Part shown: positions 18,466 through 45,298 of the stretch, in pieces | Layout of the letters: every line of letters starts with the position of its first letter | Position numbering within the stretch: the stretch's first letter is position 1 | Source: Anaerolineae bacterium | GTDB taxonomy: Bacteria; Chloroflexota; Anaerolineae; CG2-30-64-16 | Direction of reading: 5' to 3' | Length of the DNA: 64,000 nt | NCBI GenBank assembly: GCA_038214535.1 | Contig: JBBQRS010000003.1 | Coordinates: 16,459 to 80,458 of the forward strand | The notes under the pieces: generated by a model | Seen by the model: the letters and a program-made list of their open reading frames with translations, nothing else | What the model was told of the DNA's origin: nothing | Database searches by the model: none | Translations under genes and position numbers: made by a program

Positions 18466-18517
18466 GAAGCATCTCCTCCGATGCAATTCGATCCGAAACG
18501 CCCAGGGCTGCCTGAGA

Positions 18518-20743: not shown

Positions 20744-20799
20744 AAATACGTCCCCTCGGTCTTGAAGGCGAGAGAAACCGGCGACCTGTAAACTTATTT

Positions 20800-20854: not shown

Positions 20855-20860
20855 CCTGAC

Positions 20861-21694: not shown

Positions 21695-21700
21695 ATAAGA

Positions 21701-24194: not shown

Positions 24195-24683
24195 ATGGGT
24201 CTTGAAGAACATTTGCCCGAAGAAGGTTTCATCACCACGACGCTGGAAGGCGCGGTGGGCTGGGGGCGCAAGTATTCCCTCTTCCCGCTGAGTTTTGGCC
24301 TGGCGTGTTGCGCCATCGAGCAGATCGGTTCAGGGACCAGCCGGTTTGATATCAGCCGGTTCGGGTCGGAGGTGTTCCGGGCTTCGCCGCGTCAGGCCGA
24401 TCTGTTGATCGTGTCGGGCCGCGTCAGCAACAAGATGGCCCCCGTGGTCAAGCGGTTGTACGATCAGATGCTCGAACCCAAGTGGGTGATCGCGATGGGG
24501 ATCTGCGCCAGCGCCGGTGGACCGTTCAATAACTATGCCATCGTGCAGGGGGTGGATAAGCTGATTCCGGTGGACGTTTACGTGCCCGGATGCCCGCCCC
24601 GCCCCGAAGCGCTGCTTTACGCCTTGACGCTGCTGCAGAAGAAAGTCCAGGAGACCAAGTTCCGGGAACAGTTGCACACATGA
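24195..24683 (+). CDS. nuoB: NADH-quinone oxidoreductase subunit B
   Basis: FGLACCAIE...[10 protein letters not shown]...PGCPPRP N2-cluster Cys motifs. Confidence 0.85.
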
Positions 24684-26437: not shown

Positions 26438-26444
26438 AATTTAG

Positions 26445-28370
<1,926 letters not shown>

Positions 28371-28405
28371 CGCCCGATTCCAGCGTTTCGTTTTGAGGTT
28401 ACGCT

Positions 28406-31024: not shown

Positions 31025-31071
31025 ACGCGCCGACGGCGTACGCCGTCGCGTAACAATCACAGGGATTCGCT

Positions 31072-32088
31072 ATGGACTGGCTCAACCTGATTATCTTGCC
31101 GGGAATCAAATCCATCGTGCTGGTGCTTGCGCTCCTGGGCGGCTTCGCGTATCTGACCTGGGTCGAACGTAAGTTGATCGGCCGGTTTCAGATGCGCATC
31201 GGCCCGAACCGCGCCTGGCCGTTCGGGCTGGGGCATCCCATCGCCGACGCGCTCAAGATGGTTTTCAAAGAGGAATACGTCCCCAGTCACGTGGATAAGG
31301 CGCTCTACATCCTGGCCCCGGCGATGGCGATTGTGCCCGCGCTGGTGATGTTCGCCGTGATTCCGGTGGGGCCACAGTTGAATCTCTTTGGCAAGGAAAT
31401 CCCGCTCGTCGTGGCGAACGTGAACATCGGCGTGCTGTGGGTGTTGGCGATCTCCAGCGTCGGTGTGTACGGCATCATCCTGGGCGGGTGGGCCAGCAAC
31501 AACAAGTATTCGCTGCTGGGCGCACTGCGCACCAGCGCGCAGATGCTCTCTTACGAGTTGCCGATGGGCGTTCTGCTGATCGCCGCCCTGCTGATCTTCG
31601 GCAGCCTGAACCTGAATGAAATCGTCACGCCGACGATCCCGGTGCCGTGGTATATGCGGGCCTGGCTGCTGTTGGCGTTTCCGTTTTACTTCATCACCAT
31701 GCTGGCCGAGACCAGCCGCAAGCCGTTCGACTTTCCTGAAACGGAGAACGAGTTGGTGGCCGGTTTCCAGACCGAGTACGGTGGCATCAAGTTCGCGTTA
31801 TTCTATATGACCGAATACCTGCATATCCTCGCTGCCAGCGGGCTTGCAGTGACCCTTTTCTTCGGCGGCTGGCGCGGCCCGTTCGTGGAGCAGATTCCCA
31901 TCCTGGGGCCGCTTTACTTTGTCGGTAAAATCCTGGCGTTGGTCTTCCTGTTCATCTGGGCCAGCGCCAGCGTCCCGCGCCCCCGGTACGACCAGCTTCT
32001 CAACTTCTGCTGGACGTTTCTGTTCCCGCTGTCGCTCGTTTATATGGTGATCACGGCTATCGTTGTCGTGATGACGCAGAGCGGGTGA
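31072..32088 (+). CDS. nuoH: NADH-quinone oxidoreductase subunit H
   Basis: ERKLIGRFQMRIGPNRAWPFGLGHPIADALKMVFKEE signature. Confidence 0.9.
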   Translation: MDWLNLIILPGIKSIVLVLALLGGFAYLTWVERKLIGRFQMRIGPNRAWPFGLGHPIADALKMVFKEEYVPSHVDKALYILAPAMAIVPALVMFAVIPVGPQLNLFGKEIPLVVANVNIGVLWVLAISSVGVYGIILGGWASNNKYSLLGALRTSAQMLSYELPMGVLLIAALLIFGSLNLNEIVTPTIPVPWYMRAWLLLAFPFYFITMLAETSRKPFDFPETENELVAGFQTEYGGIKFALFYMTEYLHILAASGLAVTLFFGGWRGPFVEQIPILGPLYFVGKILALVFLFIWASASVPRPRYDQLLNFCWTFLFPLSLVYMVITAIVVVMTQSG

Positions 32089-32144
32089 GGCGCGGTCGCC
32101 GCCGAATATGTAGTAGTGGTAAGGTGATGTTTTGAGGTGTAGCG

Positions 32145-32618
32145 ATGTATAGTGTGCGTGACGTATTCCAGGGAACAAAAGAAATCGCCGGATCTATGGC
32201 GATTACGTTGAAGGCGCTGCTGACGCCGCCGTTGACGGTGGAGTATCCGGAGCAGCCGATTGCTGTCTATCCGCGCTTCCGGGCGCGACACGAACTGCGG
32301 CTTTACGAGAATGGTCTCGAACGTTGCATCGGCTGCTGCCTGTGCGAAGCCGCCTGCCCGACGGGCGCGATCCACGTGGAGGCCGCCGAAAACGATCCGG
32401 CGCACCCGCACAGCCCCGGCGAGCGCTACGCCAAGGTGTACGAGGTCAACCTGATGCGCTGCGTCTTCTGCGGCGATTGCGAGACGGCCTGCCCGGTCGA
32501 GGCGGTCGTGTTGGGGCATGATTTCGAACTGGCCGTTTATAGCCGCGATGGGTTCCTGCTGACCAAGGAGGAACTCTTGCATCCTAAGACGCCGAACGTG
32601 ATTGTGCGGGCCGAATAA
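32145..32618 (+). CDS. nuoI: NADH-quinone oxidoreductase subunit I (2x[4Fe-4S])
   Basis: CIGCCLCEAACP and CVFCGDCETACP motifs. Confidence 0.85.
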   Translation: MYSVRDVFQGTKEIAGSMAITLKALLTPPLTVEYPEQPIAVYPRFRARHELRLYENGLERCIGCCLCEAACPTGAIHVEAAENDPAHPHSPGERYAKVYEVNLMRCVFCGDCETACPVEAVVLGHDFELAVYSRDGFLLTKEELLHPKTPNVIVRAE

Positions 32619-32679
32619 CGTCGGAGAGACGTTTGGTCACTTATCCTGAAGCCGATTACCCGGTGGGCATGAGGGACGT

Positions 32680-33195
32680 ATGGTTTTATTCATCATCTTT
32701 AGTCTGATTGCCGTCGTGGCCGCCATCGGCGTCGTCGTCAGTCGCAAGCCGATTTACAGCGCGCTGTTCCTGCTGTTGAACTTCGCGACCCTGGCGGCGC
32801 TGTACATCATGCTCGAGGCGCAGTTCCTGGCGGCGGTGCAGATCATCGTCTACGCCGGCGCGATCGTCGTGCTGATTCTCTTTGTCATCATGCTGATCGG
32901 CGGCGGCGAGCTGCACGACATCCGCGATCAGAGCCTTCCCCTGGCAAAACGATTCACGTGGCCCCGCATCATGGGCCTCGTGCTGTTCGTGTTGCTTGTG
33001 GGAACCCTGGCTTATAGTCTGATTACGGGCGCGTTGAACCCGGTGCAGGGCGACGCCACGGCTTTCGGGCAGGGCAGCATCCAGGCCATCGGCAGCGTAC
33101 TCTATACCGATTACCTGCTCCCGTTCGAGTTGATGTCAGTCTTGCTACTGGTCGGCATGATCGGCGCCGTCGTGCTGGCGCGCCCACCCGATTGA
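32680..33195 (+). CDS. nuoJ: NADH-quinone oxidoreductase subunit J
   Basis: 171-aa 5-TM protein, position between nuoI and nuoK. Confidence 0.8.
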   Translation: MVLFIIFSLIAVVAAIGVVVSRKPIYSALFLLLNFATLAALYIMLEAQFLAAVQIIVYAGAIVVLILFVIMLIGGGELHDIRDQSLPLAKRFTWPRIMGLVLFVLLVGTLAYSLITGALNPVQGDATAFGQGSIQAIGSVLYTDYLLPFELMSVLLLVGMIGAVVLARPPD

Positions 33196-33217
33196 GCGCA
33201 CTGTTTTCGAGGCAAAC

Positions 33218-33520
33218 ATGGTCCCGACTGAATACTATTTGATTCTTGCCGCCGTACTCTTCAGCATCGGCGCGCTGGGCGTGGTGTTCCGGCGCAACGT
33301 CCTGATTATCTTCATGTGCGTCGAGATGATGCTCAACGCCGTGAATCTGACGTTCGTGGCGCTGGCCCACCATTTCATGGACCTGAACGGCCAGATCTTC
33401 GTGCTGGTCGCCGTGGCCGTCGCGGCGGCTGAGGTGGCCGTGGGTCTTGCGATCCTGATGAAGGTGATCCGGGGCAAGGATACGACCAACGTCCAGGACA
33501 TCAATCTCCTGAAAGGTTAA
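33218..33520 (+). CDS. nuoK: NADH-quinone oxidoreductase subunit K
   Basis: 100 aa, CVEMMLNAVNLTFVA motif. Confidence 0.85.
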   Translation: MVPTEYYLILAAVLFSIGALGVVFRRNVLIIFMCVEMMLNAVNLTFVALAHHFMDLNGQIFVLVAVAVAAAEVAVGLAILMKVIRGKDTTNVQDINLLKG

Positions 33521-33555
33521 CTTCCTGCTGACAGCAGGAAAGGGCAAGGTTGCTT

Positions 33556-35460
33556 ATGTCTGATTACGCCTGGCTGATGCTGTTGTTCCCGGCCATTGGA
33601 TTGGTCGTTATATCCTTCTTCGGGACCCGGTTGAGCAAGGGCATCGTCGGCTGGCTCGCGTCTTTGATGGTTGCCTTGAGCTTTCTGGTGGCCGTGGCCG
33701 TGTTCGTGCAGATGCTCGGGCTGCCGGTTGAGGCGCGCGGCCAGCGTGTGCCGCTCTGGTCGTGGATGACCGCCGGCGATTTCCACGCAGACGCCGCCCT
33801 GCTGATTGACCAGCTTTCCATCATCATGGCGCTGGTGGTTACCGGCGTTGGTTTTCTGATCCACGTTTATTCCATCGGCTACATGCACGATGACCCGCGG
33901 TTCCCGCGCTTCTTCGCCTATATGAATCTTTTCATCCTGATGATGTTGGTGCTTGTCCTTGCCGACAATTACCTGATGCTCTATGTTGGTTGGGAAGGCG
34001 TGGGCCTGTCGTCCTATCTGCTGATCGGGTTCTGGTATGAGAAGCCCGCGGCGGCCAATGCGGGCATGAAAGCGTTCCTGGTGAATCGCGTCGGTGACCT
34101 GGGGCTGTTGCTTGCCATTATGATTATCTGGACGAGCCTGGGCACGCTCCAGTTCAACGAGGTGTTCCAGCGGGCCGAGACGTTGTGGGCCGTCGGCGGG
34201 ACGTTCGCCGTGGCGACGACGCTGCTGATGTTGCTGGGGGCGACGGGCAAGAGCGCCCAGATTCCTCTCTTCGTCTGGTTGCCGGACGCGATGGAAGGCC
34301 CCACGCCGGTCTCGGCGCTCATCCATGCCGCCACGATGGTCACGGCAGGCGTCTACCTGATCGCACGGTCGGGCGTGCTCTATGCGCTGGCCCCGGTCAG
34401 CGCGAGCTTGGCCGCGGTGATCGGCGCGGCGACCGCGCTGTTTGCCGCCACCATCGCCCTGACACAGGTAGACCTGAAGCGTATTTTGGCCTATTCGACC
34501 ATCTCGCAGCTTGGCTTCATGTTCATGGCCGTGGGCGTCGGCGCATATTCCGCCGGCATCTTCCACCTGGTCACGCACGCCTTTTTCAAGGCGCTGCTGT
34601 TCCTGGGCGCGGGCAGCGTGATGCACGCGCTGGACGGCGAACTGGACATCCGCAAGATGGGCAACCTGCGCGCGAAGATGCCCACCACGAATTGGACGTT
34701 CCTGATCGGCGCGGCGGCGCTGGCCGGCATCCCGCTCTTTTCCGGCTTTTTCAGCAAGGACGAAATCCTCTATTACGACTATCTGTATCAGCCGTTGTTG
34801 TGGCTGGTGGGGACGATCACGGCGTTCCTCACGGCGGTCTATGCCTTCCGGGCCTATTTTATGCCCTTCTGGGGGACGGAACGGGTTAAGAAGCGGTGGG
34901 ATCACGCCCATGAGTCGCCGCGGATCATGACGATCCCGCTGATCATTCTGGCGGTCGGCGCGGTGGTGGTTGGATTGATCGGTATCCCCTTCGCATCGTG
35001 GATCGAACCGTGGCTCGAACCCGTGTTTGCGACCGCACACGAGATCAAGCACGCCGAGGAAGCCGCCGGCTCAGACATGACCAAGACCGTCCTGCTGGCG
35101 ATTGCGGCGATCATCGCCCTGAGTGGCGCGTTCGTGGCCTACCGGGCCTTCCTGGTCAGCACCGAGTGGCCCAAACGCGTGCGGGCGTCGTTGGGCGGGT
35201 TCGGTACGCTGGTGGAAAACAAATACCGCGTGGATGAACTCTACAACGCGGCGGTCGTGGCTCCCCTCCTGGGCCTGGCCCGCTGGTTTGCCGGCCCTAT
35301 GGATCAACGCACCATTGACGGCGCCGTGAACGGTCTGGCCGGGCTGACGGGCAGCCTCGGTGAACGGGTGCGTCGCCTGCAAGTGGGCCAGGTCGGTATC
35401 TACGCATTGTCCATGCTCTTCGGGGCCGTCGCCATTCTCATCTGGCTTGCGGTTCAATGA
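33556..35460 (+). CDS. nuoL: NADH-quinone oxidoreductase subunit L
   Basis: ~634 aa, WLPDAMEGPTPVSALIHAATMV core and C-terminal long-helix region; start at MSDYAWLM. Confidence 0.85.
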   Translation: MSDYAWLMLLFPAIGLVVISFFGTRLSKGIVGWLASLMVALSFLVAVAVFVQMLGLPVEARGQRVPLWSWMTAGDFHADAALLIDQLSIIMALVVTGVGFLIHVYSIGYMHDDPRFPRFFAYMNLFILMMLVLVLADNYLMLYVGWEGVGLSSYLLIGFWYEKPAAANAGMKAFLVNRVGDLGLLLAIMIIWTSLGTLQFNEVFQRAETLWAVGGTFAVATTLLMLLGATGKSAQIPLFVWLPDAMEGPTPVSALIHAATMVTAGVYLIARSGVLYALAPVSASLAAVIGAATALFAATIALTQVDLKRILAYSTISQLGFMFMAVGVGAYSAGIFHLVTHAFFKALLFLGAGSVMHALDGELDIRKMGNLRAKMPTTNWTFLIGAAALAGIPLFSGFFSKDEILYYDYLYQPLLWLVGTITAFLTAVYAFRAYFMPFWGTERVKKRWDHAHESPRIMTIPLIILAVGAVVVGLIGIPFASWIEPWLEPVFATAHEIKHAEEAAGSDMTKTVLLAIAAIIALSGAFVAYRAFLVSTEWPKRVRASLGGFGTLVENKYRVDELYNAAVVAPLLGLARWFAGPMDQRTIDGAVNGLAGLTGSLGERVRRLQVGQVGIYALSMLFGAVAILIWLAVQ

Positions 35461-35467
35461 GGCCTTC

Positions 35468-36961
35468 ATGAACCCTGACATTCCTATTCTTTCCATTATC
35501 CTGTTCCTGCCGCTGCTCGGCGCGCTGGTGTTGCTGCTGCTGCCTTCCGAAAAGTTGCAGAAGTGGTGGACGCTCGGCGTCACCGTCGCCACGTTCCTGG
35601 CGTCCTGTTTGCTGATCGTCTGGTGGCAAGAGGGCTACGCGGGGATGCAGTTCATTGAGCGGTATGACTGGGTCGCGCTGTTCAACATCCAATATCTATT
35701 GGGCGTGGACGGGCTGAGCGTGTGGCTGGTGTTGCTGACCACCTTCATGACGATGCTGGTGATCGTCTTCTCGTGGGAAGGGATCGCGAAGAACCTCAAG
35801 GGCTATCTCTTCCTGATCCTGCTGCTGGAAACGGGCATGATTGGGGTGTTCGTCGCGCTGGATCTGGTGCTGTTCTATATCTTCTGGGAACTGAGCCTGG
35901 TGCCGATGTATTTCCTGATCGGCATCTGGGGCGGTCCGAAGCGCGTGTATGCCGCCGTCAAGTTCTTCATCTTCACGATGGTCGCCAGCGCGCTGATGCT
36001 GGTCGGTATCCTGATGCTCTACCGGCAGGGCGGCACGTTCGACCTGTTGGAGCTGCAGAAAATGTCACTCTCGCCGAATCTCCAGGTGTGGTTGTTCCTG
36101 GCGTTTGGGCTGGCGTTCGCCGTGAAGGTTCCGTTGTTCCCGTTCCACACCTGGCTGCCCGACGCGCACGTCCAGGCCCCCACCGGCGGCTCTGTGATCC
36201 TGGCAGGCATCCTGCTGAAGATGGGGACGTACGGGTTCCTGCGTTTCTGCCTGACGATGTTTCCCGACGCTACCCGACAATTCGTGCCGTGGATCGCCGC
36301 GCTGGCTGTGATCGGCATCATCTACGGCGGGCTGGTCGCGCTGACCCAGCGCGATGTGAAGTCGCTGGTCGCCTACTCGTCGGTCGCCCACCTGGGGTTT
36401 GTGGTGCTGGGGCTATTTGCCCTCAACTCACAGGGCATCGCTGGGGCCTCGTTGCAGATGGTCAATCACGGGTTGAGTACGGGGGCGTTGTTCTTGCTGG
36501 TGGGGATGCTCTACAACCGGCGGCACACGCGCAACCTGGATGAATTTGGCGGCCTGTGGAAGGTGATGCCGGTCTTCGGCTTTCTCTTCCTGATCGTAGC
36601 GTTTTCATCCGCCGGGTTGCCGGGGCTGAACGGCTTCGTGGGCGAGTTCAACATCCTGCTGGGCGCTTTCCGGTCGAACCCCGTGTTCGCCGTGATCGGC
36701 ACTGTGGGCATCGTGGTCGGGGCCTGGTATCTGCTGCGGGCGATCCGTGAGATGCTGCAAGGCCCGTTGACCAAGCCGGAGAACATGGCGCTGAGCGACT
36801 TGAATAAGCGCGAAGTGTTGACGCTCGTCCCGATCATCATCCTGATCGTCGTGATTGGCCTCTTCCCGAATCTGTTCCTGAGCAAAATCAACCCGTCCGC
36901 CGATGCAGTGGCCGCGGAGTTGGAAAATCGCCCCGCCGTCACCCTGATGATTGACAAGTAG
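35468..36961 (+). CDS. nuoM: NADH-quinone oxidoreductase subunit M
   Basis: WLPDAHVQAPTGGSVILAGILLK core; start at MNPDIPILSI (the overlapping upstream part of ORF 35360 is rejected). Confidence 0.85.
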   Translation: MNPDIPILSIILFLPLLGALVLLLLPSEKLQKWWTLGVTVATFLASCLLIVWWQEGYAGMQFIERYDWVALFNIQYLLGVDGLSVWLVLLTTFMTMLVIVFSWEGIAKNLKGYLFLILLLETGMIGVFVALDLVLFYIFWELSLVPMYFLIGIWGGPKRVYAAVKFFIFTMVASALMLVGILMLYRQGGTFDLLELQKMSLSPNLQVWLFLAFGLAFAVKVPLFPFHTWLPDAHVQAPTGGSVILAGILLKMGTYGFLRFCLTMFPDATRQFVPWIAALAVIGIIYGGLVALTQRDVKSLVAYSSVAHLGFVVLGLFALNSQGIAGASLQMVNHGLSTGALFLLVGMLYNRRHTRNLDEFGGLWKVMPVFGFLFLIVAFSSAGLPGLNGFVGEFNILLGAFRSNPVFAVIGTVGIVVGAWYLLRAIREMLQGPLTKPENMALSDLNKREVLTLVPIIILIVVIGLFPNLFLSKINPSADAVAAELENRPAVTLMIDK

Positions 36962-36988
36962 AACCCTGAGCGCCAAGCGGAGTCATTC

Positions 36989-38470
36989 ATGACTTTTCCC
37001 ACCATCAACCTGCTCGCCATTGCGCCCCAGATCATCCTGGTGGTTGCGGCCTGCATCACCCTGCTGCTCGATCTCGTCGTGCAGAACAAGCGCAGCCTGG
37101 GCTGGTTCAGCCTGGGTTCGGTGCTCACGGCGCTGGCCGCGCTCATCTTCCTGCGCCCCGCGACGCCGGAATTTCAACCGGGGGCCGTCGGCTCCAACAT
37201 GGCGCTCGCCGATGGCCTGAGCTGGATTGCCGGCGCGGCCATCCTGATTGCGGTCGGCCTGGCGATCCTGGTCTCCATAGATCACGTCGCAGACTTCACG
37301 CGGCGGATCGGCGCGTATTATGCGCTGCTGCTGCTCGCGGCGGTCGGTATGCTGGCAATGGTGACGGCCAGCGACTTCATGACCATTTTCCTGGGGCTGG
37401 AAATCTTCTCGCTGGCGCTCTACATCCTGGTGGGGTATTATCACAGTGACCTGCGCTCAGGCGAGGCCGCGTTGAAGTATTTCCTGCTGGGAGCCTTTGC
37501 CAGCGGCTTCTTCCTCTATGGCATCGCTCTGATCTACGGCGCGACGGGGCAGACGAACCTGGCGGCCATCACGATGTCTATCGCGCCGTTGTCCTCTAAC
37601 CTGCCGTTTGCGCCTCTACTTCCGATCGGGATGGGCCTATTGCTGGTGGGGTTTGGCTTCAAGGTAGCGCTAGTACCGTTCCATATGTGGACGCCGGATG
37701 TCTACCAGGGTGCGCCGACTACCGTGACAGCGTTCATGTCCGTCGCCGTCAAGACTGCGGCCTTCACGGCGCTGATTCGTGTGCTGGCGTCTGTCACTAC
37801 GTTCAGCCGGCCCTGGTTGCTGGTGTTGGCGGTTATGGCCGCGCTGACGATGACGTGGGGCAACCTGGCCGCCCTGCGCCAGACCAGCGTCAAGCGGATG
37901 CTGGCCTATTCCAGCATCGCCCATGCGGGCTATATCCTGACGGGCGTGGCCGCGGGCACGGAGCGCGGCGCGCAGGCGGCCCTCTATTATCTGGTGGTCT
38001 ACACTTTCATGACCTTCGGTGCGTTTGGCGTCGTCCTTGCGGCGCAGCGCCGCGATCAGAACGATCTGACGACTTCGCAGATTGCCGGGCTGGCCTCGCG
38101 CCAGCCGTTTCTGGCGGTGCTGATGTCCATCTTCATGTTCGCCCTGATCGGGATTCCCCCGCTGGCCGGTTTCTTCGGCAAGCTGTACGTGTTCGGCGCC
38201 GCAGTGGACGCCGGGTTGACGTGGCTGGCCGTGATCGGTGTCATTAACAGCGGTATCGCCGCCTTCTACTATCTGCGGATTACCGTTTCCATGTATATGG
38301 ACGCGCCGGAAGCCGCCGCGGAAGGCAGTGGGTCCATCGCGGCGCGCAACACGTCTGCGCTGGTGTTGACTGCCCTTGTTGTGGCCGCCGCCGGCACGGT
38401 CATCCTGGGCCTGTGGCAACAGCCGCTGGTCAATGGAATTGCCCAGGCGGTGGTGGCTCTCTTGCCGTAA
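36989..38470 (+). CDS. nuoN: NADH-quinone oxidoreductase subunit N
   Basis: 493-aa antiporter-like subunit, last gene of the complete operon. Confidence 0.85.
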   Translation: MTFPTINLLAIAPQIILVVAACITLLLDLVVQNKRSLGWFSLGSVLTALAALIFLRPATPEFQPGAVGSNMALADGLSWIAGAAILIAVGLAILVSIDHVADFTRRIGAYYALLLLAAVGMLAMVTASDFMTIFLGLEIFSLALYILVGYYHSDLRSGEAALKYFLLGAFASGFFLYGIALIYGATGQTNLAAITMSIAPLSSNLPFAPLLPIGMGLLLVGFGFKVALVPFHMWTPDVYQGAPTTVTAFMSVAVKTAAFTALIRVLASVTTFSRPWLLVLAVMAALTMTWGNLAALRQTSVKRMLAYSSIAHAGYILTGVAAGTERGAQAALYYLVVYTFMTFGAFGVVLAAQRRDQNDLTTSQIAGLASRQPFLAVLMSIFMFALIGIPPLAGFFGKLYVFGAAVDAGLTWLAVIGVINSGIAAFYYLRITVSMYMDAPEAAAEGSGSIAARNTSALVLTALVVAAAGTVILGLWQQPLVNGIAQAVVALLP

Positions 38471-38671: not shown

Positions 38672-39553
38672 TTAGAGGCCCAGGGCCAGACGGATATCGG
38701 CCAGGGCTGCCGCCTCTTCTTCGCTGATCACTTTCTTGCCGATGCCCAGGAACCCACCTTCTTTGGAGGCTTCCGCGACGTTGGTGGCGGCTTCCAGGAG
38801 CATGGCGTTAAAGATTGCAGCCTGGTCCGGCGCTTTCGCGGCAACGGTGGCCGCGGCGGATTTGACGGTGCTCATCATCGCCGCCGGAGGCGTTTCGTTG
38901 ATGAACTTCTGCATATCCGCCACGTTGACTTCCTGGCCGTACGCCACGTTCATCAATGACCACGCCGAGCCACCCTTTTGGGCTGCGTTCAGTGTGTCAA
39001 CTACCGCGTTCGCTTCGGCAGCCGCATCCTTGCCTTTGGAAGGCGAGGCGAGCATGACCAGCGCAGCCGCGGCCATCGGTGCGAGGCGAATCTTGGCCCA
39101 TTCATCACCGGCGAACAGGGCCTTTGTAGATGCCATCCGCTCTGACGTGGACCACGAGACCAGATCCGGCGTCTGCTTGGCGGTCTGGACCCACTGCGCA
39201 ACCTCGTCATCACGCGGCACGCGCTGGTTGCCCATAGTGGTGGCCGTTTTAATCAACGTCGCGTGTAGATCGGCGGGGTTGGCTTTGGCCAGGTCCGACA
39301 CGGAGCGGATCCCTGCCCGGTTCAACATCACCGCAAAGGAAGCGCCGATGCCCTTCACGCGGGTCAGGTCGGTCTGCTCGATGATGTCATTCAGCATGCG
39401 TTCGTCAACGCCCAGCTTCTGCAGTAGAGACGCGCGTTGCGCCGGATCGGTGACGAGCATGAGCAACTGATCGGTGTCGGCGATGCCCATGGATTTGAGG
39501 ACTGCGGCGGTTTGCCCGGAGATGTTGGAGAACTCACTCAGTTTGTAGGCCAT
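38672..39553 (-). CDS. hypothetical protein with N-terminal tandem helix-hairpin-helix (DUF4332-like) region and Ala-rich C-terminal half
   Basis: 293-aa ORF; AAGGAG-type RBS 7 nt upstream of the ATG at 39553; GIG-containing HhH-like motifs (VKGIGASFAVMLNRAGIRSVSDLA). Confidence 0.5.
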   Translation of the reverse strand: MAYKLSEFSNISGQTAAVLKSMGIADTDQLLMLVTDPAQRASLLQKLGVDERMLNDIIEQTDLTRVKGIGASFAVMLNRAGIRSVSDLAKANPADLHATLIKTATTMGNQRVPRDDEVAQWVQTAKQTPDLVSWSTSERMASTKALFAGDEWAKIRLAPMAAAALVMLASPSKGKDAAAEANAVVDTLNAAQKGGSAWSLMNVAYGQEVNVADMQKFINETPPAAMMSTVKSAAATVAAKAPDQAAIFNAMLLEAATNVAEASKEGGFLGIGKKVISEEEAAALADIRLALGL

Positions 39554-39705: not shown

Positions 39706-39734
39706 TTGATTGAGGAAGAGGGTTGCGCTATACT
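39706..39734 (+). promoter_or_regulatory. sigma70-like promoter candidate (TTGATT-17 nt-TATACT) for the exonuclease / NTase-like / permease-peptidase operon
   Basis: Hexamers at 39706-39711 and 39729-39734 with a 17-nt spacer, ~45 nt upstream of ATG 39781. Confidence 0.45.
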
Positions 39735-39780: not shown

Positions 39781-40356
39781 ATGACGCGTTATCATCCCGA
39801 AGACGAAATCTTTATCTCTGTGGACATCGAAGCGGCCGGCCCCTACACGGAACGCTATTCGCTGCTGACCATCGGCGCGTGTATTGTGGATGCGCCGGAC
39901 GAGGCCTTTTACGTCGAACTGAAGCCATTAAGTTCAGACGCCACGCCGGAGGCGCTGGCAGTCACCGGGCTTTCGATGGATGAACTGGCTGCCAACGGCG
40001 TTGAGCCTGCCGAGGCCATGTTGCGCTTCGAGCAGTGGACGCTGAGCCACATCGCAAGGGGGCAACGCCCGGTCTTCGTGGCGTTTAACGCCTCGTTTGA
40101 CTGGATGTTCGTCAACGAGTATTTTCACCGTTTCCTGGGCTGTAACCCGTTCGGGCATTCGGCGCTCGATATGAAGGCGCTTTACATGGGGTTGAGCGGG
40201 GCGACCTGGTCTGAGACTTCGATGCGTTATGTCTCTGCGCGTTATCTGGAAGATTGCCAGTTGACGCATCACGCGCTGAATGACGCCCGCGATCAGGCGG
40301 AACTGTTTCGTCGGATGCTGGATGAAGCGTCAACCCACGGTTGGGGTTGGGTCTGA
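39781..40356 (+). CDS. DEDDh-family 3'-5' exonuclease (DnaQ/RNase T/oligoribonuclease-like fold)
   Basis: Exo I motif FISVDIEAAGP, Exo II FVAFNASFDWMFV, Exo III HHALNDARDQAELF (His = DEDDh subtype); ~191 aa if started at MTRYHPED. Confidence 0.75.
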   Translation: MTRYHPEDEIFISVDIEAAGPYTERYSLLTIGACIVDAPDEAFYVELKPLSSDATPEALAVTGLSMDELAANGVEPAEAMLRFEQWTLSHIARGQRPVFVAFNASFDWMFVNEYFHRFLGCNPFGHSALDMKALYMGLSGATWSETSMRYVSARYLEDCQLTHHALNDARDQAELFRRMLDEASTHGWGWV

Positions 40357-40400
40357 GCCAAAGCCGGCGCGCCGATAGCTCATACAGAAAGGTAATTGTC

Positions 40401-41738
40401 ATGGATCAGCAACAATCCTCCGAATCCGCAAATTCAGCCCTCGCGGCGCTCATCGAATCGGCCCAACGCCTGGGCGTCGAACTGGATGAAGCCGATGCCT
40501 TGCAATGGCTGACGGCCATTAGCGCATGGAAACCGGGCGACGCGCTGTCGGTTAATGATGAACTCGGCGTTTTTGGTCATCAGGTTGTCATGCTCGACTT
40601 CAACCCCGCGGAACTGGCCTATTTTCGGGAACTGGCGCGCGTGGTGGCGATTGACGATCAACCCGGCGTTATCGAGACGGCGATTGCACTGTCCGGTTCG
40701 GCGGCCCAGTCGAAAATCCAGACCTACCCCGGCGACTGCGACTTCTTCCAACGGGTGAACATTATCGCGCCGACGCGTCAGGAGGCGTGTCGCATTCTGG
40801 CGCAGGCGATGCGCGACAAGGCGTTGCAGGCAATGCGGGGTCGCACCTACCAACTCATCGAGGTGAAGTTCGGCTCGTATCCGCAAGACCTGGTGGTGGG
40901 CGATAAACTGATGAAGGCCGGTTCGCCGATTGCGTGGGGCGTCGGTGAGCTACGCGCCGGCCAGATCAACGCCTTCCTGCCCGATGATTCGCCCTATGCG
41001 TTGCAGTGGGATGATGTGGCCGATGACCCCGGTTGGTGCAAGCTGGATTGGGTCGTTGCCGATCCGCAGCGCAGCCGGTTGGCGAACGCCAGCAATATGC
41101 TGGATGTTACGTGGGAAGCGCCGGACGGCAGCATCACGCCGCTGGATGGCTACCTTGACCCCTACTTCCAGGAGGTCTATCTCGAAGCGGACTCGATTCC
41201 CATCTTCAGCAAGCTCTCCCGGCACGTTTCGGCTGATGCCCTCGACGATTACGTCGCGGCGCTCCAACGTGAAGTCCGCAAATATGTGACGAAAGACGTG
41301 AACTACGGCAAGGCGGCCAAGCGGATGTACAACGTCTTCCGGTTGACGGGGCGCTATCCCGAAGCGGCGTTCATCCGCGAGCTGTTCGACGAACCGGCGA
41401 CCATGCTTTACCAGGTTTGGTCTTTGATCCGCACCGTGGATGATTGGTACGAGACAGGTTCGAGCATTTCGCTGGAGATTGTTCTCCAGCAGACCGATCA
41501 ACTGATCCTATCGGTGATCAAGGCGCTGGAGGGCGAAGCGGAAGAGGAGATCGTTGAGGATCTGCTCCATTTCCGCGATATTCTGGTGCGTCACGGCAGC
41601 GACGAGTCGCTGACCGCGGAGGCCGAAGGCGCGCGCCAGCGGATCATCAACCTGGTGAACAACTTCTTTTATGAGCGATTGACCGCGTTGCCGCAGATTA
41701 AGCAGTACATGGAAGATATTTCAGCGGATCACGCTTGA
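40401..41738 (+). CDS. hypothetical protein with candidate Pol-beta-superfamily nucleotidyltransferase core (hG[GS]...DxD) plus large helical C-terminal domain
   Basis: AIALSGSAAQSKIQTYPGDCDFFQRVNI matches hG[GS]-x(9-13)-[DE]h[DE]h; candidate third acidic residue in QLIEVKF; 446 aa; its stop overlaps the ATG of the next gene (TGATG at 41736-41740). Confidence 0.4.
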   Translation: MDQQQSSESANSALAALIESAQRLGVELDEADALQWLTAISAWKPGDALSVNDELGVFGHQVVMLDFNPAELAYFRELARVVAIDDQPGVIETAIALSGSAAQSKIQTYPGDCDFFQRVNIIAPTRQEACRILAQAMRDKALQAMRGRTYQLIEVKFGSYPQDLVVGDKLMKAGSPIAWGVGELRAGQINAFLPDDSPYALQWDDVADDPGWCKLDWVVADPQRSRLANASNMLDVTWEAPDGSITPLDGYLDPYFQEVYLEADSIPIFSKLSRHVSADALDDYVAALQREVRKYVTKDVNYGKAAKRMYNVFRLTGRYPEAAFIRELFDEPATMLYQVWSLIRTVDDWYETGSSISLEIVLQQTDQLILSVIKALEGEAEEEIVEDLLHFRDILVRHGSDESLTAEAEGARQRIINLVNNFFYERLTALPQIKQYMEDISADHA

Positions 41739-44700
41739 TGACGGCGGCGGATGGCCTGCTTGTCGGCGAGGCTGTAAGCGAGGTCAAGCACCGGCGGGCC
41801 GGGGGTGAGGGCGTGCGTCGGGTTGTGCGGCGGCTGTTGGATACGTTGCTGATCCTTGCCGCCATTGTTTATCTTACCCAGTTCCTTCTTATCCTGGCCG
41901 CGCTGGGACGCGAGCGTCAGCCTGCCTCGTTCGTTCAGGTCGCCGGGCAGGCCCTGACGCAAAGCCTCGATTACGTCTTCCGGCATCCCCAGACTTACCT
42001 CTGGCACAAAGTCGAAACCGGCTCGTTTAACCTCGTCCTCACGACCTTCAGTCACAGCATTGGCCTGCTTTTATTATCCCTCGCCATCGCGACGGTGAGC
42101 GGCTGGGCGCTGGGGCTGCTGATGGCGCTGAGGCAGCGGCGCGCCGGTTCGATGTTCATCTTCACGCTCACCGTCCTGGGTACCTCGACTCCCAGCTTTC
42201 TGCTCGCGATGTTGCTCTGGATCATCAACATCCGGGTACACAACCGCTTTGACGTGCCCGCGCTGCCGCCCACCGGCTTCGGCTGGGACGCGCACCTGAT
42301 CATGCCCGCGCTGGTGTTGGCTGCCCGCCCGCTCGCGCAGATCGCCCAGGTGACGTATGTGCAGGTGTCGCAGGCGTTGGGGCAAGATTTCATCCGCACG
42401 GCGCACGCCAAGGGCCTCTCGGCGCGGATGGTGCGCGATCGCCACGCCATTCCCAACATTATTGCGCCGGTGCTCACCACCGTCGGCACGTCGCTGCGCT
42501 ATTCGCTTTCGAGCCTGCCGGTCGTCGAGTACTTCTTCCTGTGGCCGGGCGTTGGCTTGCTGATTTTGCAAGCCATTGACGCAGATATGCCGACGCTGGT
42601 GACCGATTCGATCGTCTGCCTCGGGCTGTTCTTTCTCGTCGTTAACTTGCTGCTGGATCTGGCGCTGCCCCTGCTGGACCCACGCCTGCGCGATACGTCT
42701 TCCAATCGCGTGGGCGTGGAAGGGATGGGGCTAAACGGGCTGAAAGAGGGCCTTGTCGGCATCTTCAACCGACAGAGGACGCGCGGCGAGACGTTGCCGC
42801 CGCTGCCCCGTTCTACGGTGAGCCGTGCGCTGCTTGAAGCCGGGGAACCGGCGGCCACTGCGCGCGCGACCTGGGCCTTCAAGGGCCTGGCGAGTAACTT
42901 ACCGCTGCTGATCGGCGGCGCGCTGGTAGTCGGCATGATTCTCGTGGGGATCTTCGCGCCCCGCCTGACCGCCGCCAATCCCTACCAGAGTCACGGCGTG
43001 ATGACGATTGACGGCGTGATCGGCGCGCCGCCATATCCGCCTTCGGACACCTTCCCGTGGGGCACGGATCATATCGGGCGCGACGTGCAGGCGTTGGTGT
43101 TGTATGGCGCGCGGCAAACGCTGCTGCTGGCCTTCTTCGGGATGCTTGCGCGCCTGGTTCTTGGGTCTATGCTGGGGGCCGTGGCCGGGTGGCAGCAGGG
43201 CGGACGGTTCGACCGGCTGGTGATGGGGGCGACGAACGTCTGGGCGGCGTTTCCCACTACGATTTTTGCGCTCCTGCTCATCCAGGGGTTGGGTATCCAG
43301 CAGGGGATGTGGGTTTTCGTCGTGGCGCTTTGTGTCGTGGGCTGGGGCGAGGTCGCGCAGACGGTGCGGCAACAGGTGATCCATATCAAGCCGCAGCTCT
43401 TCATCGAGGCCGCGCGTTCGATCGGCGCGCGGGCGTCGCGTACCCTGGCCCAACACGTTATGCCCGGTTTGTTGCCGATGTTGATCGTGCTCGGTGTGTT
43501 GGAGATGGGCGGCATCCTGATGCTGCTGGCCGAGCTCGGTTTTCTGAACACCTTCCTGGGCGGTGGATTCCGCGTGGAAATCGGCGAGGTCGGGCAGATG
43601 CAGCCGATTGTCGCCTATTTCTCCGACATTCCGGAATGGGGCGCGATGCTGGCGAACGTGCGCCAATGGTGGCGCAGCTACCCATGGATGGCGTGGTATC
43701 CGGGGGCGGCGTTCTTTCTGGCGATCCTCAGCTTTAATCTGTTTGGCGAAGGGCTGCGGCGCTTTTTCGAGCGCAGCCGGATTAATCTGGGCCGGCTCTT
43801 TGGCCGCTACGCGCTGCCCGGCGCAGTCGCCGCGACTTTGCTGCTCGTATGGCTGCTGCGCAGCGCGACGCCCCTGGCCGATTATCAGGGTTACGCGGAA
43901 TCGTTTGACGCGCAGCATGTTTTGCATGACGTCGAGACGCTGGCCTCCGCGGAGTACGGCGGTCGCGAGACGGGCACGCCGGGCGCAGAGCAGACCGTCC
44001 GATTCATCGCCGAACGGATGGCGGAGATCGGTCTGTTCCCTGCCGGCGACTCGACGCCGACCAAAGATCAGAATCCCTTCATTCAAACGCAGATTGTGGA
44101 GCGGCCTCGCCTGACCGGTGTGCCACAACTGACGATTGAAGGCGACCCCGGTGAGGCGCTGATTTACCGGGAGGACTTTGTCGAGCGGCCCGTTTCAATG
44201 CAGGAACGCGCGCAGGGCGTCGTGGTCGGCGTGGCGCTTGGCCCCGAACCGTCCGGCAGGCTCACCGATCCGTATGGGCTGGGGCGGCAAGACCTGCTCG
44301 ACAAGGTGCTGATCGTGCCGGAGGAGAACCTCGCTCGCCTGAAAACCAGTGTGCCGTCGGCGATTCTGGTGATTACACAGGACTCGCTGATGCTTGAACG
44401 GAGATTCCTGTTTCCCGGCGCTTTTGGGCGTGGAAAAACGCCTCCGCAAATGTACATCTCGCCGGAGACGTCGGATCGCCTGCTTCAGACGACGGGGACC
44501 AGCCTGGCAGAGTTCGAGAATGCCGCCGCCCAACTCGGGCCGGGCGAAGCGGTTGTGACCGGTGACGGGGTTTCGGTGACGCTGGAGATTCCGCTGTCTG
44601 CGCCGGATGGGGGCGAAACGCCTACCGTGGAATATTACAACATCATCGGGTTTATCCCCGGCAGCGGCGCGGAAATGCAAACCGAGACCGGCGCGAGCAT

Positions 44701-45298
44701 GGATAGCCAGGTTATCGTGGTTAGCGCGTATTACGATGGCCTGGGCATCGGCCCGGATGGGACGTTCTATCCTGGCGCGAATGACAACGCCAGCGGCATC
44801 GCCACGCTGTTGGAACTGGCGCGCTTGATGAAAGAGAGCCCATATCAACCCAAACGGACAATCGTGTTTGTGGCCTGGGCAGGCGGCGAGCGCAACGAAG
44901 CGCTGAGTGTGACGAGCATCATGAGCGCGAAGGTCGGGTTCAGCGGGTTGAACGTGGAGACCGTGATGGAACTGAGCGGCGTCGGCGCGGGCGACGGCAA
45001 GGCGGTGGCCTTCGGTGAAGGGAGCAGCTATCGTCTGGTGCAGCTTTACCAGAAAGCAGCGGCGCGCCTGGGGGTCGAGACGACGACGCGGGGGCGAGGC
45101 CCACACTACGCGATGCCTGACACGATGGCCTTCGGCGGCCGCGATGCGCTCTCGCTCCACGTCAGTTGGGACGGCTCCGACCGGACCGCGCACACGCCCG
45201 ATGACGCGATAGCGGCGATTGACATCGAGAAGCTGCGACAGATCGGCCAGTCGGCCATGCTCACATTAAGCGTGCTCAGCCGCGAGCCCACATATTAG
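41738..45298 (+). CDS. fusion protein: OppB/DppB-like ABC permease domain + OppC/DppC-like ABC permease domain + extra TM helix + M28-family zinc-peptidase-like domain with PA-like insert
   Basis: EAA-region AHAKGLSARMVRDRHAIPN and C-terminal LLDPRLR (OppB-like); PWGTDHIGRDVQALVLYGARQT and second EAA region (OppC-like); hydrophobic YALPGAVAATLLLVWLL after the permease; C-terminal SAYYDGLGIGPDGTFYPGANDNASGIATLLELAR...WAGGER...HTPDDAIAAIDIEKL (M28-like). Confidence 0.7.
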   Translation: MTAADGLLVGEAVSEVKHRRAGGEGVRRVVRRLLDTLLILAAIVYLTQFLLILAALGRERQPASFVQVAGQALTQSLDYVFRHPQTYLWHKVETGSFNLVLTTFSHSIGLLLLSLAIATVSGWALGLLMALRQRRAGSMFIFTLTVLGTSTPSFLLAMLLWIINIRVHNRFDVPALPPTGFGWDAHLIMPALVLAARPLAQIAQVTYVQVSQALGQDFIRTAHAKGLSARMVRDRHAIPNIIAPVLTTVGTSLRYSLSSLPVVEYFFLWPGVGLLILQAIDADMPTLVTDSIVCLGLFFLVVNLLLDLALPLLDPRLRDTSSNRVGVEGMGLNGLKEGLVGIFNRQRTRGETLPPLPRSTVSRALLEAGEPAATARATWAFKGLASNLPLLIGGALVVGMILVGIFAPRLTAANPYQSHGVMTIDGVIGAPPYPPSDTFPWGTDHIGRDVQALVLYGARQTLLLAFFGMLARLVLGSMLGAVAGWQQGGRFDRLVMGATNVWAAFPTTIFALLLIQGLGIQQGMWVFVVALCVVGWGEVAQTVRQQVIHIKPQLFIEAARSIGARASRTLAQHVMPGLLPMLIVLGVLEMGGILMLLAELGFLNTFLGGGFRVEIGEVGQMQPIVAYFSDIPEWGAMLANVRQWWRSYPWMAWYPGAAFFLAILSFNLFGEGLRRFFERSRINLGRLFGRYALPGAVAATLLLVWLLRSATPLADYQGYAESFDAQHVLHDVETLASAEYGGRETGTPGAEQTVRFIAERMAEIGLFPAGDSTPTKDQNPFIQTQIVERPRLTGVPQLTIEGDPGEALIYREDFVERPVSMQERAQGVVVGVALGPEPSGRLTDPYGLGRQDLLDKVLIVPEENLARLKTSVPSAILVITQDSLMLERRFLFPGAFGRGKTPPQMYISPETSDRLLQTTGTSLAEFENAAAQLGPGEAVVTGDGVSVTLEIPLSAPDGGETPTVEYYNIIGFIPGSGAEMQTETGASMDSQVIVVSAYYDGLGIGPDGTFYPGANDNASGIATLLELARLMKESPYQPKRTIVFVAWAGGERNEALSVTSIMSAKVGFSGLNVETVMELSGVGAGDGKAVAFGEGSSYRLVQLYQKAAARLGVETTTRGRGPHYAMPDTMAFGGRDALSLHVSWDGSDRTAHTPDDAIAAIDIEKLRQIGQSAMLTLSVLSREPTY

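What the first reader, a model, noticed from the sequence alone, without database searches (positions are those of the whole stretch)
40401..41738. 446-aa protein with GS...DxD nucleotidyltransferase signature and ~110-aa N-terminal extension
In AIALSGSAAQSKIQTYPGDCDFFQRVNI, a beta-strand ending in GS is followed 11 residues later by DCD. This is the Pol-beta fold metal-binding arrangement hG[GS]-x(9-13)-[DE]h[DE]h. A further acidic residue sits in a hydrophobic strand (QLIEVKF) ~50 residues on. The C-terminal ~250 residues are predicted helical, as in cGAS/DncV-like and OAS-like enzymes. The N-terminal ~110 residues could be a sensor domain. I could not assign a known family.
Basis: inference. 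Interest (0 to 1): 0.5.

Follow-up and report, generated by a model that had tools for sequence, protein, structure and literature searches.

The report
Unannotated nucleotidyltransferase paired with Cap18-like exonuclease
The gene encodes a real but unclassified nucleotide-joining enzyme found throughout one class of Chloroflexota bacteria. It almost always sits next to an exonuclease whose CBASS relatives cut 2'-5' nucleotide bonds, which suggests (untested) that the pair makes and destroys a 2'-5'-linked nucleotide signal.

Summary
The ORF at 40401-41738 (+) is real and encodes 445 aa. The GS...DxD motif alone is at chance level: 24% of shuffles of this protein contain it. However, G99, S100, D112 and D114 are invariant in 85 species-level orthologs and at least 90% conserved in relatives of 25-49% identity.

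The key new fact is the upstream gene (39781-40356). It is a DEDDh exonuclease of the CBASS Cap18/Exo family (7T2S E=2e-51; PADLOC CBASS model 6e-71). A preprint reports that this family is a 2'-5'-specific phosphodiesterase. Exo and NTase lie adjacent on the same strand in about three quarters of related genomes and co-evolve. Other neighbours vary and are housekeeping genes.

Best model (inferred): the NTase makes a 2'-5'-linked nucleotide product and the Exo degrades it, as a vertically inherited module rather than a mobile defence island.

The parts
39706..39734 (+). Sigma-70-like promoter match (TTGATT-17-TATACT) upstream of the exonuclease gene
   Evidence: Consensus scan, 9 of 12 matches. 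Weak evidence only. No terminator-like site lies between the two genes.
39781..40356 (+). Cap18/Exo-family DEDDh exonuclease (191 aa from ATG 39781), the conserved operon partner of the NTase
   Evidence: PADLOC CBASS model PDLC00753 'Exonuclease' E=6.4e-71, full length. PDB 7T2S '3'-5' exonuclease' E=1.9e-51, against RNase T at only 4e-5. It is 46-52% identical to exonucleases inside type II and type III CBASS operons. In the numbering of the 191-aa protein, the DEDDh residues D15, E17, D107, H163 and D168, plus P21 and N103, are invariant in 53 Anaerolineae copies.
40387..40392 (+). Shine-Dalgarno-like GAAAGG, 8 nt before the NTase ATG
   Evidence: Read directly from the sequence. The gap between the exonuclease stop and the NTase start is 44 nt.
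40401..41738 (+). 445-aa Mg662-like Pol-beta-superfamily nucleotidyltransferase (the finding)
40401..40595 (+). N-terminal extension, residues 1-65: two predicted helices plus a loop, function unknown
   Evidence: pLDDT 34-63. The sequence is nevertheless conserved within Anaerolineae (S20, A21, G25, E27, Q35, W36, G56 and G59 invariant).
40695..40742 (+). Codons for G99-S100 ... D112-x-D114: the NTP/metal-binding signature at the end of strand beta1 and on strand beta2
   Evidence: Invariant in 85 of 85 species-level orthologs and at least 90% conserved in the wider family. Strands 91-98 and 112-122 flank helix 101-107.
40860..40862 (+).
   Evidence: E in 84 of 85 orthologs. By my reading of the alignment it is E or D in most of the 29 wider-family members, but R or Q in at least two (P0128, P0132).
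41103..41105 (+). D235 in strand 226-239 (NMLDVTWE): alternative and better-conserved candidate for the third catalytic carboxylate
   Evidence: Invariant in the 29-member wider family and in 85 of 85 orthologs. The assignment rests on analogy with the hxhDh strand of OAS/PAP-type enzymes (inference).
41187..41726 (+). C-terminal all-helical region, residues 263-442. It includes the conserved NYGKAAKRMYNxFRLTGR helix (K304, R308, Y310, N311, R314) and a terminal helical bundle

Best explanation
The ORF encodes an active, metal-dependent, template-independent nucleotidyltransferase of the Pol-beta superfamily. It belongs to an uncurated family whose only solved structural relative is Megavirus Mg662. 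It is the downstream gene of a two-gene operon whose first gene is a Cap18/Exo-type DEDDh exonuclease.

Proposed mechanism:
- The NTase binds NTP and Mg2+ through G99-S100 and D112/D114, with a third carboxylate (D235 or E154).
- It joins nucleotides through at least one 2'-5' phosphodiester bond. The product would be a linear or cyclic oligonucleotide.
- The co-transcribed Exo hydrolyses the 2'-5'-linked intermediate or product. This sets a threshold or terminates the signal, as reported for Exo in CBASS.
- The N-terminal extension and the C-terminal helical bundle would regulate activity. Any receptor is encoded elsewhere.

The pair is vertically inherited, very conserved and embedded among housekeeping genes. 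I therefore read it as a domesticated nucleotide-signalling (or nucleotide-turnover) module of Anaerolineae-type Chloroflexota, not as a mobile anti-phage island.

Shown here: the ORF, residue conservation, the NTase fold, the Cap18-family identity of the neighbour, conserved adjacency and co-evolution.
Inferred: catalytic activity, the 2'-5' chemistry, a signalling role and the regulatory role of the extra domains.
For: Fold:
- Foldseek against PDB: Mg662 at E 1e-6, then OAS1, FAM46A, CD-NTases and cGAS.
- Foldseek against BFVD: 16 hits at E<=1e-3 (best 2.5e-13), nearly all from giant viruses and virophages, one named 'Nucleotidyl transferase'.
- The secondary structure is beta(91-98)-GS-helix-beta(112-122, DxD)-helix-beta(150-159).

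Active-site conservation:
- G99, S100, D112, D114 and D235 are invariant in 85 orthologs.
- They are at least 90% conserved at 25-49% identity.

The partner gene:
- It matches the CBASS exonuclease model at 6e-71 and PDB 7T2S at 2e-51.
- Its plasmid relatives (50-55% identical by tblastn) sit in SAVED-Cyclase-Cap2-Cap3-Exo and HORMA-TRIP13-TIR-Exo operons.
- Catalytic and pocket residues are conserved.
- bioRxiv 10.1101/2025.03.04.641389 reports that three CBASS Exo homologs hydrolyse 2'-5' but not 3'-5' dinucleotides, degrade 2'-5' oligoadenylate, and show no activity on ordinary DNA or RNA.

Linkage of the two genes:
- Exo lies directly upstream on the same strand in 62 of 85 genomes, including the window. 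The median gap is 73 bp.
- The pairwise distance matrices of the two proteins correlate (r=0.86, Mantel p=0.001).
- No other neighbour is conserved across the set.

Housekeeping character:
- At least 589 species genomes carry the gene, nearly all labelled Anaerolineae or Chloroflexota.
- The NTase is as conserved as NuoN in the closest relative (89% versus 90%).
- Window neighbours are nuo, Mur ligase, CorA, opp transporters and XseA.
- There is no copy on plasmids or in viral contigs.
Against: - No biochemical data exist for this family or, to my knowledge, for Mg662 beyond its PDB titles.
- The 2'-5' inference is guilt by association and rests on a single preprint about proteobacterial Exo proteins.
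- The Anaerolineae Exo differs from those proteins at base-contacting positions. The stacking Phe (VcExo F120) is His in 51 of 53 copies, and the D49 equivalent is variable.
- About a quarter of orthologs lack an adjacent Exo (some of these loci are simply cut short upstream), and distant family members lack it too.
- No receptor or effector gene is linked.
- Some distant relatives carry signal peptides or extracytoplasmic-type fusions, which fits poorly with NTP chemistry.
- The third catalytic residue is unresolved.
- The AF2 model is only moderately confident (pLDDT 76).
Confidence: 0.4

Rival explanations
1. It is an RNA 3'-end nucleotidyltransferase (a tailing or repair enzyme like poly(A)/CCA/TUTase-type NTases). 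The DEDDh exonuclease is the trimming partner, as with RNase T and the CCA-adding enzyme.
For: The fold class (NTase core plus helical substrate-binding domain) is shared with FAM46/TENT5 and other tailing enzymes. The partner has weak RNase T similarity (4e-5; TIGR01298 5.6e-9, far below its cut-off). High conservation and a housekeeping context suit an RNA-processing role.
Against: The partner is about 50% identical to CBASS Cap18 but only marginally similar to RNase T. The characterised Cap18-family enzymes showed no activity or binding on ssRNA, dsRNA, ssDNA or dsDNA. No RNA-binding domain was detected, and no RNA gene or Rfam element lies nearby.
Confidence: 0.2
2. It is a small-molecule or protein nucleotidylyltransferase (ANT/KNTase-like, GlnE-like, or an AMPylating enzyme). 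Adjacency to the exonuclease would be conserved synteny without a shared substrate.
For: NTase plus a C-terminal helical bundle is also the architecture of aminoglycoside NTases; AAD(9) is a weak Foldseek hit (E 0.09). Roughly 20-25% of orthologs and the distant members tested lack an adjacent Exo. Some distant members look extracytoplasmic.
Against: The Exo-NTase order, strand and short gap persist while every other neighbour changes, and the two proteins co-evolve. Identity of 65-70% across a whole bacterial class is unusual for resistance-type NTases.
Confidence: 0.15
3. It is a bona fide anti-phage CBASS-like system: a divergent cyclase plus Cap18, with the effector encoded elsewhere or built into the NTase.
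For: Cap18-family exonucleases were found here in CBASS operons, and about 4% of CBASS operons carry one. The fold is related to cGAS and OAS.
Against: No PADLOC cyclase model matches and hhalign against a CD-NTase finds nothing. No effector, Cap2/3 or HORMA/TRIP13 gene is linked. Strong purifying selection and the absence from plasmids and viral contigs are the opposite of defence-island behaviour.
Confidence: 0.1
4. It is a catalytically dead NTase-fold scaffold (pseudoenzyme), like MiD51 or NF45/NF90.
For: MiD51 and NF90/NF45 appear among weak Foldseek hits. A few divergent family members have degenerate motifs (P0132, P0152, P0246).
Against: GS, DxD and several further acidic and basic residues are invariant in all 85 orthologs. 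That is the pattern expected for an active site.
Confidence: 0.03

Closest known systems
Megavirus chilensis Mg662 nucleotidyltransferase (PDB 4AMQ, 4AMS, 4XUL) and its uncharacterised giant-virus and virophage relatives (Zamilon, Yellowstone Lake and Qinghai Lake virophages, mavirus, 'V21 virophage-like protein')
   Different: Only 9-15% sequence identity, and no HMM-level link. The bacterial protein has an extra N-terminal segment of about 65 aa. It is bacterial, chromosomal and paired with a Cap18-type exonuclease. The function of Mg662 itself is unpublished as far as I could find.
CD-NTase plus Cap18/Exo of CBASS (for example E. coli upec-117 CdnC/Cap18; Klebsiella type II CBASS)
   Same: An NTase-fold enzyme is encoded next to a Cap18-family DEDDh exonuclease. 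The working model (synthase plus 2'-5' phosphodiesterase that degrades its intermediate) is borrowed from this system.
   Different: The NTase is not a CD-NTase by sequence or profile. No effector or Cap2/3/6/7 gene is linked. The gene order is Exo then NTase. The pair is vertically inherited and highly conserved rather than mobile. The Exo carries His where VcExo and SmExo have the stacking Phe.
2'-5' oligoadenylate synthetase (OAS1) with 2'-5' phosphodiesterases (PDE12, AKAP7, viral ns2)
   Same: NTase core plus helical C-lobe; OAS1 is the best non-Mg662 Foldseek hit (E 3e-3). The synthase/2'-5'-PDE logic is the same. In one sub-lineage a 2H phosphoesterase also follows the NTase; AKAP7 and ns2 belong to that superfamily (my own knowledge).
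   Different: No OAS Pfam domain is detected and the structural score is weak. There is no evidence for dsRNA activation or an RNase L-like effector. The PDE here is a DEDDh enzyme.

Membership tests
Pol-beta-like nucleotidyltransferase superfamily | G[GS] at the end of strand beta1, followed after 9-13 residues by [DE]h[DE]h on strand beta2 | tested here: met
   G99-S100, 11 residues, then D112-C-D114-F. The motif lies on strands 91-98 and 112-122. It is invariant in 85 orthologs and at least 90% conserved family-wide. The residue before G is S, not hydrophobic.
Pol-beta-like nucleotidyltransferase superfamily | A third catalytic carboxylate on a neighbouring strand | tested here: inconclusive
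   Two candidates: E154 (strand 150-159, R or Q in at least two divergent members) and D235 (strand 226-239, invariant family-wide).
Pol-beta-like nucleotidyltransferase superfamily | Alpha/beta NTase core fold | tested here: met
CD-NTase (cGAS/DncV-like; CBASS cyclase) | Match to CD-NTase, SMODS or Mab-21 profile models | tested here: not met
   No Pfam hit for the protein or for 29 relatives. No PADLOC 'Cyclase' hit, whereas a genuine cyclase hits 14 such models. hhalign of family profile A2 against that cyclase gives probability 0.1.
CD-NTase (cGAS/DncV-like; CBASS cyclase) | Operon with a nucleotide-sensing effector (SAVED, STING, patatin, TM and so on) | tested here: not met
   Only the exonuclease is a conserved neighbour in the 77 loci clustered. 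Loci without Exo have unrelated neighbours.
OAS family | OAS1_C or NTP_transf_2 domains; strong structural match to OAS | tested here: not met
Mg662-like viral NTases | Global structural similarity over both lobes | tested here: met
Cap18/Exo family (the neighbouring gene 39781-40356) | Full-length match to the CBASS exonuclease model or structure, well above matches to other DEDDh nucleases | tested here: met
   PDLC00753 236 bits, positions 4-181 of 184; a true CBASS copy scores 309 bits. 7T2S E=1.9e-51 against RNase T at 4e-5.
Cap18/Exo family (the neighbouring gene 39781-40356) | DEDDh catalytic residues and the pocket residues named in the Exo study (VcExo P15, N97, V55, F120, D49, E51) | tested here: inconclusive
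   D, E, D, H, D, P15 and N97 are invariant. V55 is I or V in 49 of 53. E51 is kept in 45 of 53. F120 is His in 51 of 53. D49 is variable. The residue mapping assumes the +3 numbering offset inferred from D165 and H160.
Cap18/Exo family (the neighbouring gene 39781-40356) | Selective 2'-5' phosphodiesterase activity | not testable with these tools
   [quoted passage not shown] It needs an enzyme assay for the Anaerolineae protein.

The most novel reading that the evidence does not exclude
Anaerolineae-type Chloroflexota carry, as a vertically inherited near-core module, a synthase/2'-5'-phosphodiesterase pair that makes and clears a 2'-5'-linked nucleotide second messenger. In effect it would be a domesticated OAS/cGAS-like signalling pathway used for housekeeping regulation rather than phage defence. 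It is built on an NTase family otherwise seen, by structure only, in giant viruses and virophages.
Probability: 0.3. Interest if true: 0.75.

Novelty: new variant of a known kind. Interest (0 to 1): 0.6.

Why it matters
- The family is large: more than 6,000 clusters at 90% identity and at least 589 species genomes. It has no Pfam, NCBIfam or literature description, so a class-wide conserved enzyme is currently invisible to annotation.
- Its obligate-looking partnership with a Cap18-type exonuclease gives a concrete, testable hypothesis: synthesis of a 2'-5'-linked nucleotide.
- If that hypothesis is right, 2'-5' nucleotide chemistry would extend from mobile immune systems (OAS, cGAS, CBASS) to a vertically inherited bacterial module.
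- The structural link to Mg662 and to virophage and giant-virus proteins could also give those viral ORFans a functional handle.

Tried and rejected
Searches that found nothing for the NTase:
- Pfam, NCBIfam, PHROGs and PADLOC gave no significant hit. A weak CARF9 hit (E 0.016) was judged noise.
- A Pfam scan of 29 diverse relatives gave only scattered single hits at E of 0.04 or worse.
- PDB sequence search found only noise, both with the single protein and with family profile A2 (coiled-coil and designed-bundle hits).
- hhalign of A2 against a genuine CD-NTase found no relationship.
- tblastn against plasmids and a pattern scan of IMG/VR viral contigs found no relatives.

Other dead ends:
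- Rfam on the whole window and a permissive scan of the operon leader found no riboswitch or other RNA family.
- The AFDB50 fold library was unavailable.
- Literature searches for Mg662 and for virophage V21 NTases returned nothing relevant.

Hypotheses examined and set aside:
- Loci without an adjacent Exo were checked for an alternative conserved partner; none was found.
- The 2H phosphoesterase downstream was examined as a possible third component. It is confined to one sub-lineage (NTase identity 79% within it against 67% overall), so it is not a general part of the module.
- A deeper AF2 run was not possible, because the divergent sequences came from a tool whose outputs cannot be submitted.
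Full report
1. THE OBSERVATION

An ORF runs on the + strand from ATG 40401 to the TGA at 41736-41738 and encodes 445 aa. The mechanical ORF list extends it to a TTG at 40341. However, GAAAGG lies 8 nt before the ATG, and all homolog N-termini align with the ATG start.

QLIEVKF is at 151-157.

The motif by itself means little. The pattern G[GS]x9-13[DE]x[DE] turns up in 24% of shuffles of this protein and in 9 of 50 ORFs of the window. The strict 'hydrophobic-G-[GS]' form is not met. What makes it meaningful is conservation and structure.

2. A LARGE, UNANNOTATED, STRONGLY CONSERVED FAMILY

Sequence searches gave the following.
- The word-indexed search returned more than 6,141 clusters. The top 120 are 64-100% identical over the full length, and every one that carries a name is called 'hypothetical protein'. 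None has a Pfam domain, and the labelled sources are Chloroflexota/Anaerolineae.
- A profile search of 1.84 billion representatives at 50% identity found only 696 clusters. The family is therefore numerous but narrow.
The 80 loci kept are nearly all labelled Anaerolineae, Anaerolineales or Chloroflexota.

Conservation is high at two depths.
- Among 34 close homologs, mean column identity is 76%.
- G99, S100, P110, D112, D114, R118, D216, D235, W238, D249, D253, Q257, K304, R308, Y310, N311 and R314 are invariant across 85 species-level orthologs. E154 and K156 are conserved in 84 of 85.
- In a 29-member alignment reaching down to 25% identity, G99, S100, D112 and D114 are at least 90% conserved and D235, W238, D249, R308, Y310 and R314 are invariant. 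E154 is mostly E or D, with R or Q in at least two members (P0128, P0132).

No curated family matches.
- Pfam, NCBIfam, PHROGs and PADLOC give nothing for the protein.
- Pfam gives nothing for 29 relatives.
- No PDB sequence is detectable even with the family profile.

3. FOLD

The AlphaFold2 model (34-sequence alignment) has mean pLDDT 76 and pTM 0.74. Residues 1-65 are poorly modelled. The order of secondary-structure elements is:
- helix 69-82;
- strand 91-98, ending at GS;
- short helix 101-107;
- strand 112-122, carrying DxD;
- helix 126-143;
- strand 150-159, carrying E154 and K156;
- a beta-rich stretch to about residue 260, including strands 214-221 (D216) and 226-239 (D235);
- an all-helical region 263-442.

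The first part is the canonical Pol-beta NTase core.

Structure comparisons:
- Foldseek against PDB agrees: Mg662 at E about 1e-6 with probability 1.0, followed weakly by OAS1 (3e-3), FAM46A, CD-NTases, cGAS, MiD51 and NF90/45.
- Foldseek against BFVD returns 16 hits at E<=1e-3, nearly all from giant viruses and virophages. Examples are Zamilon (E 2.5e-13, TM 0.57), Yellowstone Lake and Qinghai Lake virophages, mavirus, a 'V21 virophage-like protein', Klosneuvirus, Tupanvirus and a Pithovirus 'Nucleotidyl transferase'.

Three corrections apply:
- The helical C-terminal part is about 180 aa, not about 250.
- The N-terminal extension is about 65 aa, not about 110.
- The third catalytic acid is as likely to be the family-invariant D235 as E154. 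D235 sits in an hxhDh-type strand resembling the OAS/PAP arrangement (my inference). I could not access coordinates to decide.

4. THE DECISIVE CONTEXT: A CAP18-TYPE EXONUCLEASE

The gene immediately upstream (39781-40356, 191 aa, 44-nt gap, no terminator-like site between) is a DEDDh exonuclease. It is not a generic one.
- It matches PADLOC's CBASS 'Exonuclease' model over its full length (E 6.4e-71, 236 bits).
- It matches PDB 7T2S at E 1.9e-51, against 4e-5 for RNase T.
- Its plasmid-borne relatives (50-55% identical by tblastn) lie inside CBASS operons. In Klebsiella the order is SAVED-HNH effector, cyclase, ThiF/Cap2, JAB/Cap3, Exo. In Agrobacterium and Bradyrhizobium it is HORMA, TRIP13, TIR effector, Exo.

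This family was named Cap18 in E. coli upec-117 (bioRxiv 10.1101/2022.01.04.474952). A recent preprint (10.1101/2025.03.04.641389) reports several properties of CBASS Exo proteins:
- They do not cut ordinary DNA or RNA.
- They selectively hydrolyse 2'-5' phosphodiester bonds: the pppA[2'-5']pG intermediate of cGAS-like enzymes, and 2'-5' oligoadenylate.
- They thereby set an activation threshold for signalling.

I aligned 53 Anaerolineae copies with four CBASS copies.
- The DEDDh residues and the equivalents of VcExo P15 and N97 are invariant.
- V55 is I or V in 49 of 53.
- E51 is kept in 45 of 53.
- The stacking Phe (F120) is His in 51 of 53.
- D49 is variable.

Catalysis and pocket shape thus look conserved, but base preference may differ.

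5. THE PAIR IS A UNIT

Across the fetched loci the exonuclease lies directly upstream on the same strand in 62 of 85 genomes, including the window. Several of the remainder have truncated flanks. ORF clustering gives 56 of 77 loci with a median distance of 80 bp. From alignment-inferred starts, the median gap is 73 bp and the range is -13 to 255 bp.

No other neighbour is conserved across the set.
- The next most frequent is a fused glycyl-tRNA synthetase on the opposite strand, in 29 loci (identified by Pfam on L001).
- Loci lacking Exo show no alternative partner.

Pairwise distance matrices of the two proteins correlate (Pearson 0.86, Mantel p=0.001), so the two genes have been inherited together.

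The NTase evolves slowly. Mean pairwise identity is 68%, against 57% for Exo. In the closest relative the NTase is 89% identical, comparable with NuoN at 90%.

The window itself is ordinary chromosome: nuo genes, Mur ligase, CorA, opp-type ABC transporters, AcnX, MeaB and XseA. The NTase has no relatives on plasmids or in IMG/VR contigs. This is the signature of a vertically inherited module under purifying selection, not of a defence island.

6. MECHANISM

Shown:
- an NTase-fold protein with an invariant GS/DxD site;
- a Cap18-family exonuclease as conserved, co-evolving operon partner.

Inferred:
- The NTase condenses NTPs to a product containing at least one 2'-5' bond.
- The Exo removes the linear 2'-5' intermediate or product, acting as threshold or turnover.
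- The N-terminal 65 residues and the C-terminal bundle modulate activity.
- The receptor lies elsewhere.

I put this at about 0.4.

Rivals:
- an RNA 3'-end tailing enzyme with a trimming exonuclease (0.2). It is disfavoured because the partner is about 50% identical to Cap18 yet barely similar to RNase T, and Cap18-type enzymes were inactive on RNA and DNA;
- a small-molecule or protein nucleotidylyltransferase with merely syntenic Exo (0.15);
- a true anti-phage CBASS variant (0.1). It is disfavoured by the lack of effectors and by conservation and inheritance;
- a pseudoenzyme (0.03).

7. COMPARISON AND NOVELTY

The protein works like a cGAS/OAS-class enzyme at fold level, but it fails the membership tests for CD-NTase and OAS:
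- no profile matches;
- hhalign null;
- no effector operon.

Its nearest structural kin are Mg662 and uncharacterised giant-virus and virophage proteins, at 9-15% identity. The neighbour is a Cap18-family member by sequence.

I found no paper describing this family or the Exo-NTase pairing outside CBASS. I rate it a new variant of a known kind: an NTase plus 2'-5'-PDE module built on a different NTase family, without effector, and domesticated.

8. LIMITS

- No activity data exist.
- The 2'-5' inference rests on one preprint.
- The model has only moderate confidence.
- The AFDB50 library was unavailable.
- The third catalytic residue is unresolved.
- I could not measure genome-wide co-occurrence of the two genes.

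Noticed in passing
L015:7758-8402 (+) and 17 other related loci: In 18 loci a 2H phosphoesterase (PF13563, '2'-5' RNA ligase superfamily', E 7e-16) follows the NTase by about 200 bp on the same strand, giving Exo-NTase-2H. DUF1232 and further small genes come after it. The arrangement is confined to one sub-lineage: NTase identity is 79% within it against 67% overall. The window has no copy. From my own knowledge, the 2H superfamily includes 2'-5' phosphodiesterases.
   Followed up: partly
Proteins P0198, P0218, P0169, P0228 (distant family members; not in the window): Some divergent relatives (about 30% identity) start with what look like signal-peptide or transmembrane segments (my reading of the sequences). 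Others are fused to extracytoplasmic-type modules: a PQQ/BamB-like propeller in a 1,067-aa protein, and AbfB, F-box-associated sugar-binding, C-type lectin and PLAT domains in a 1,291-aa protein. They keep GS...DxD. An NTase-fold domain outside the cytoplasm is unexpected and unexplained.
   Followed up: partly
BFVD hits to model m674aeb322beb: The closest predicted structures among viral proteins are uncharacterised ORFs of virophages (Zamilon, YSLV5, QLV, mavirus, a 'V21 virophage-like protein') and of giant viruses. A bacterial class-wide protein sharing a fold family with virophage and NCLDV ORFans hints at an old or horizontal link.
   Followed up: no
window 39781-40356 and 52 orthologs from the related loci: The Anaerolineae Cap18-like exonucleases carry His (51 of 53) at the position of the Phe that stacks on the substrate bases in V. 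cholerae Exo. E. coli Cap18 has Ile there. This may signal a different base preference.
   Followed up: partly
window 41735-45298 (+): A 1,187-aa ORF fuses two ABC-transporter permease domains (BPD_transp_1) to a C-terminal M28 peptidase domain. Its TTG start overlaps the NTase stop codon by 4 nt. The same fusion follows the NTase in the closest relative (L006) but not in other genomes.
   Followed up: partly
window 10411-11766 (+): A 451-aa CHAT-domain (caspase-like protease) protein (PF12770, E 5e-33). It is the only window ORF that matches the strict hG[GS]x9-13[DE]h[DE]h regex, evidently by chance. It lies 30 kb from the finding.
   Followed up: no
window 38672-39553 (-): A 293-aa DUF4332 protein with a helix-hairpin-helix motif is divergently transcribed from the Exo-NTase operon. 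The neighbour relationship is kept only in the closest relative.
   Followed up: no
window 15352-22882 (-) and 24195-38470 (+): Two apparent NADH:quinone oxidoreductase (nuo-type) gene clusters lie on opposite strands of the same 64-kb window. The + strand cluster is supported by Pfam calls on the syntenic locus L006. The - strand cluster is only my reading of the ORF translations.
   Followed up: no
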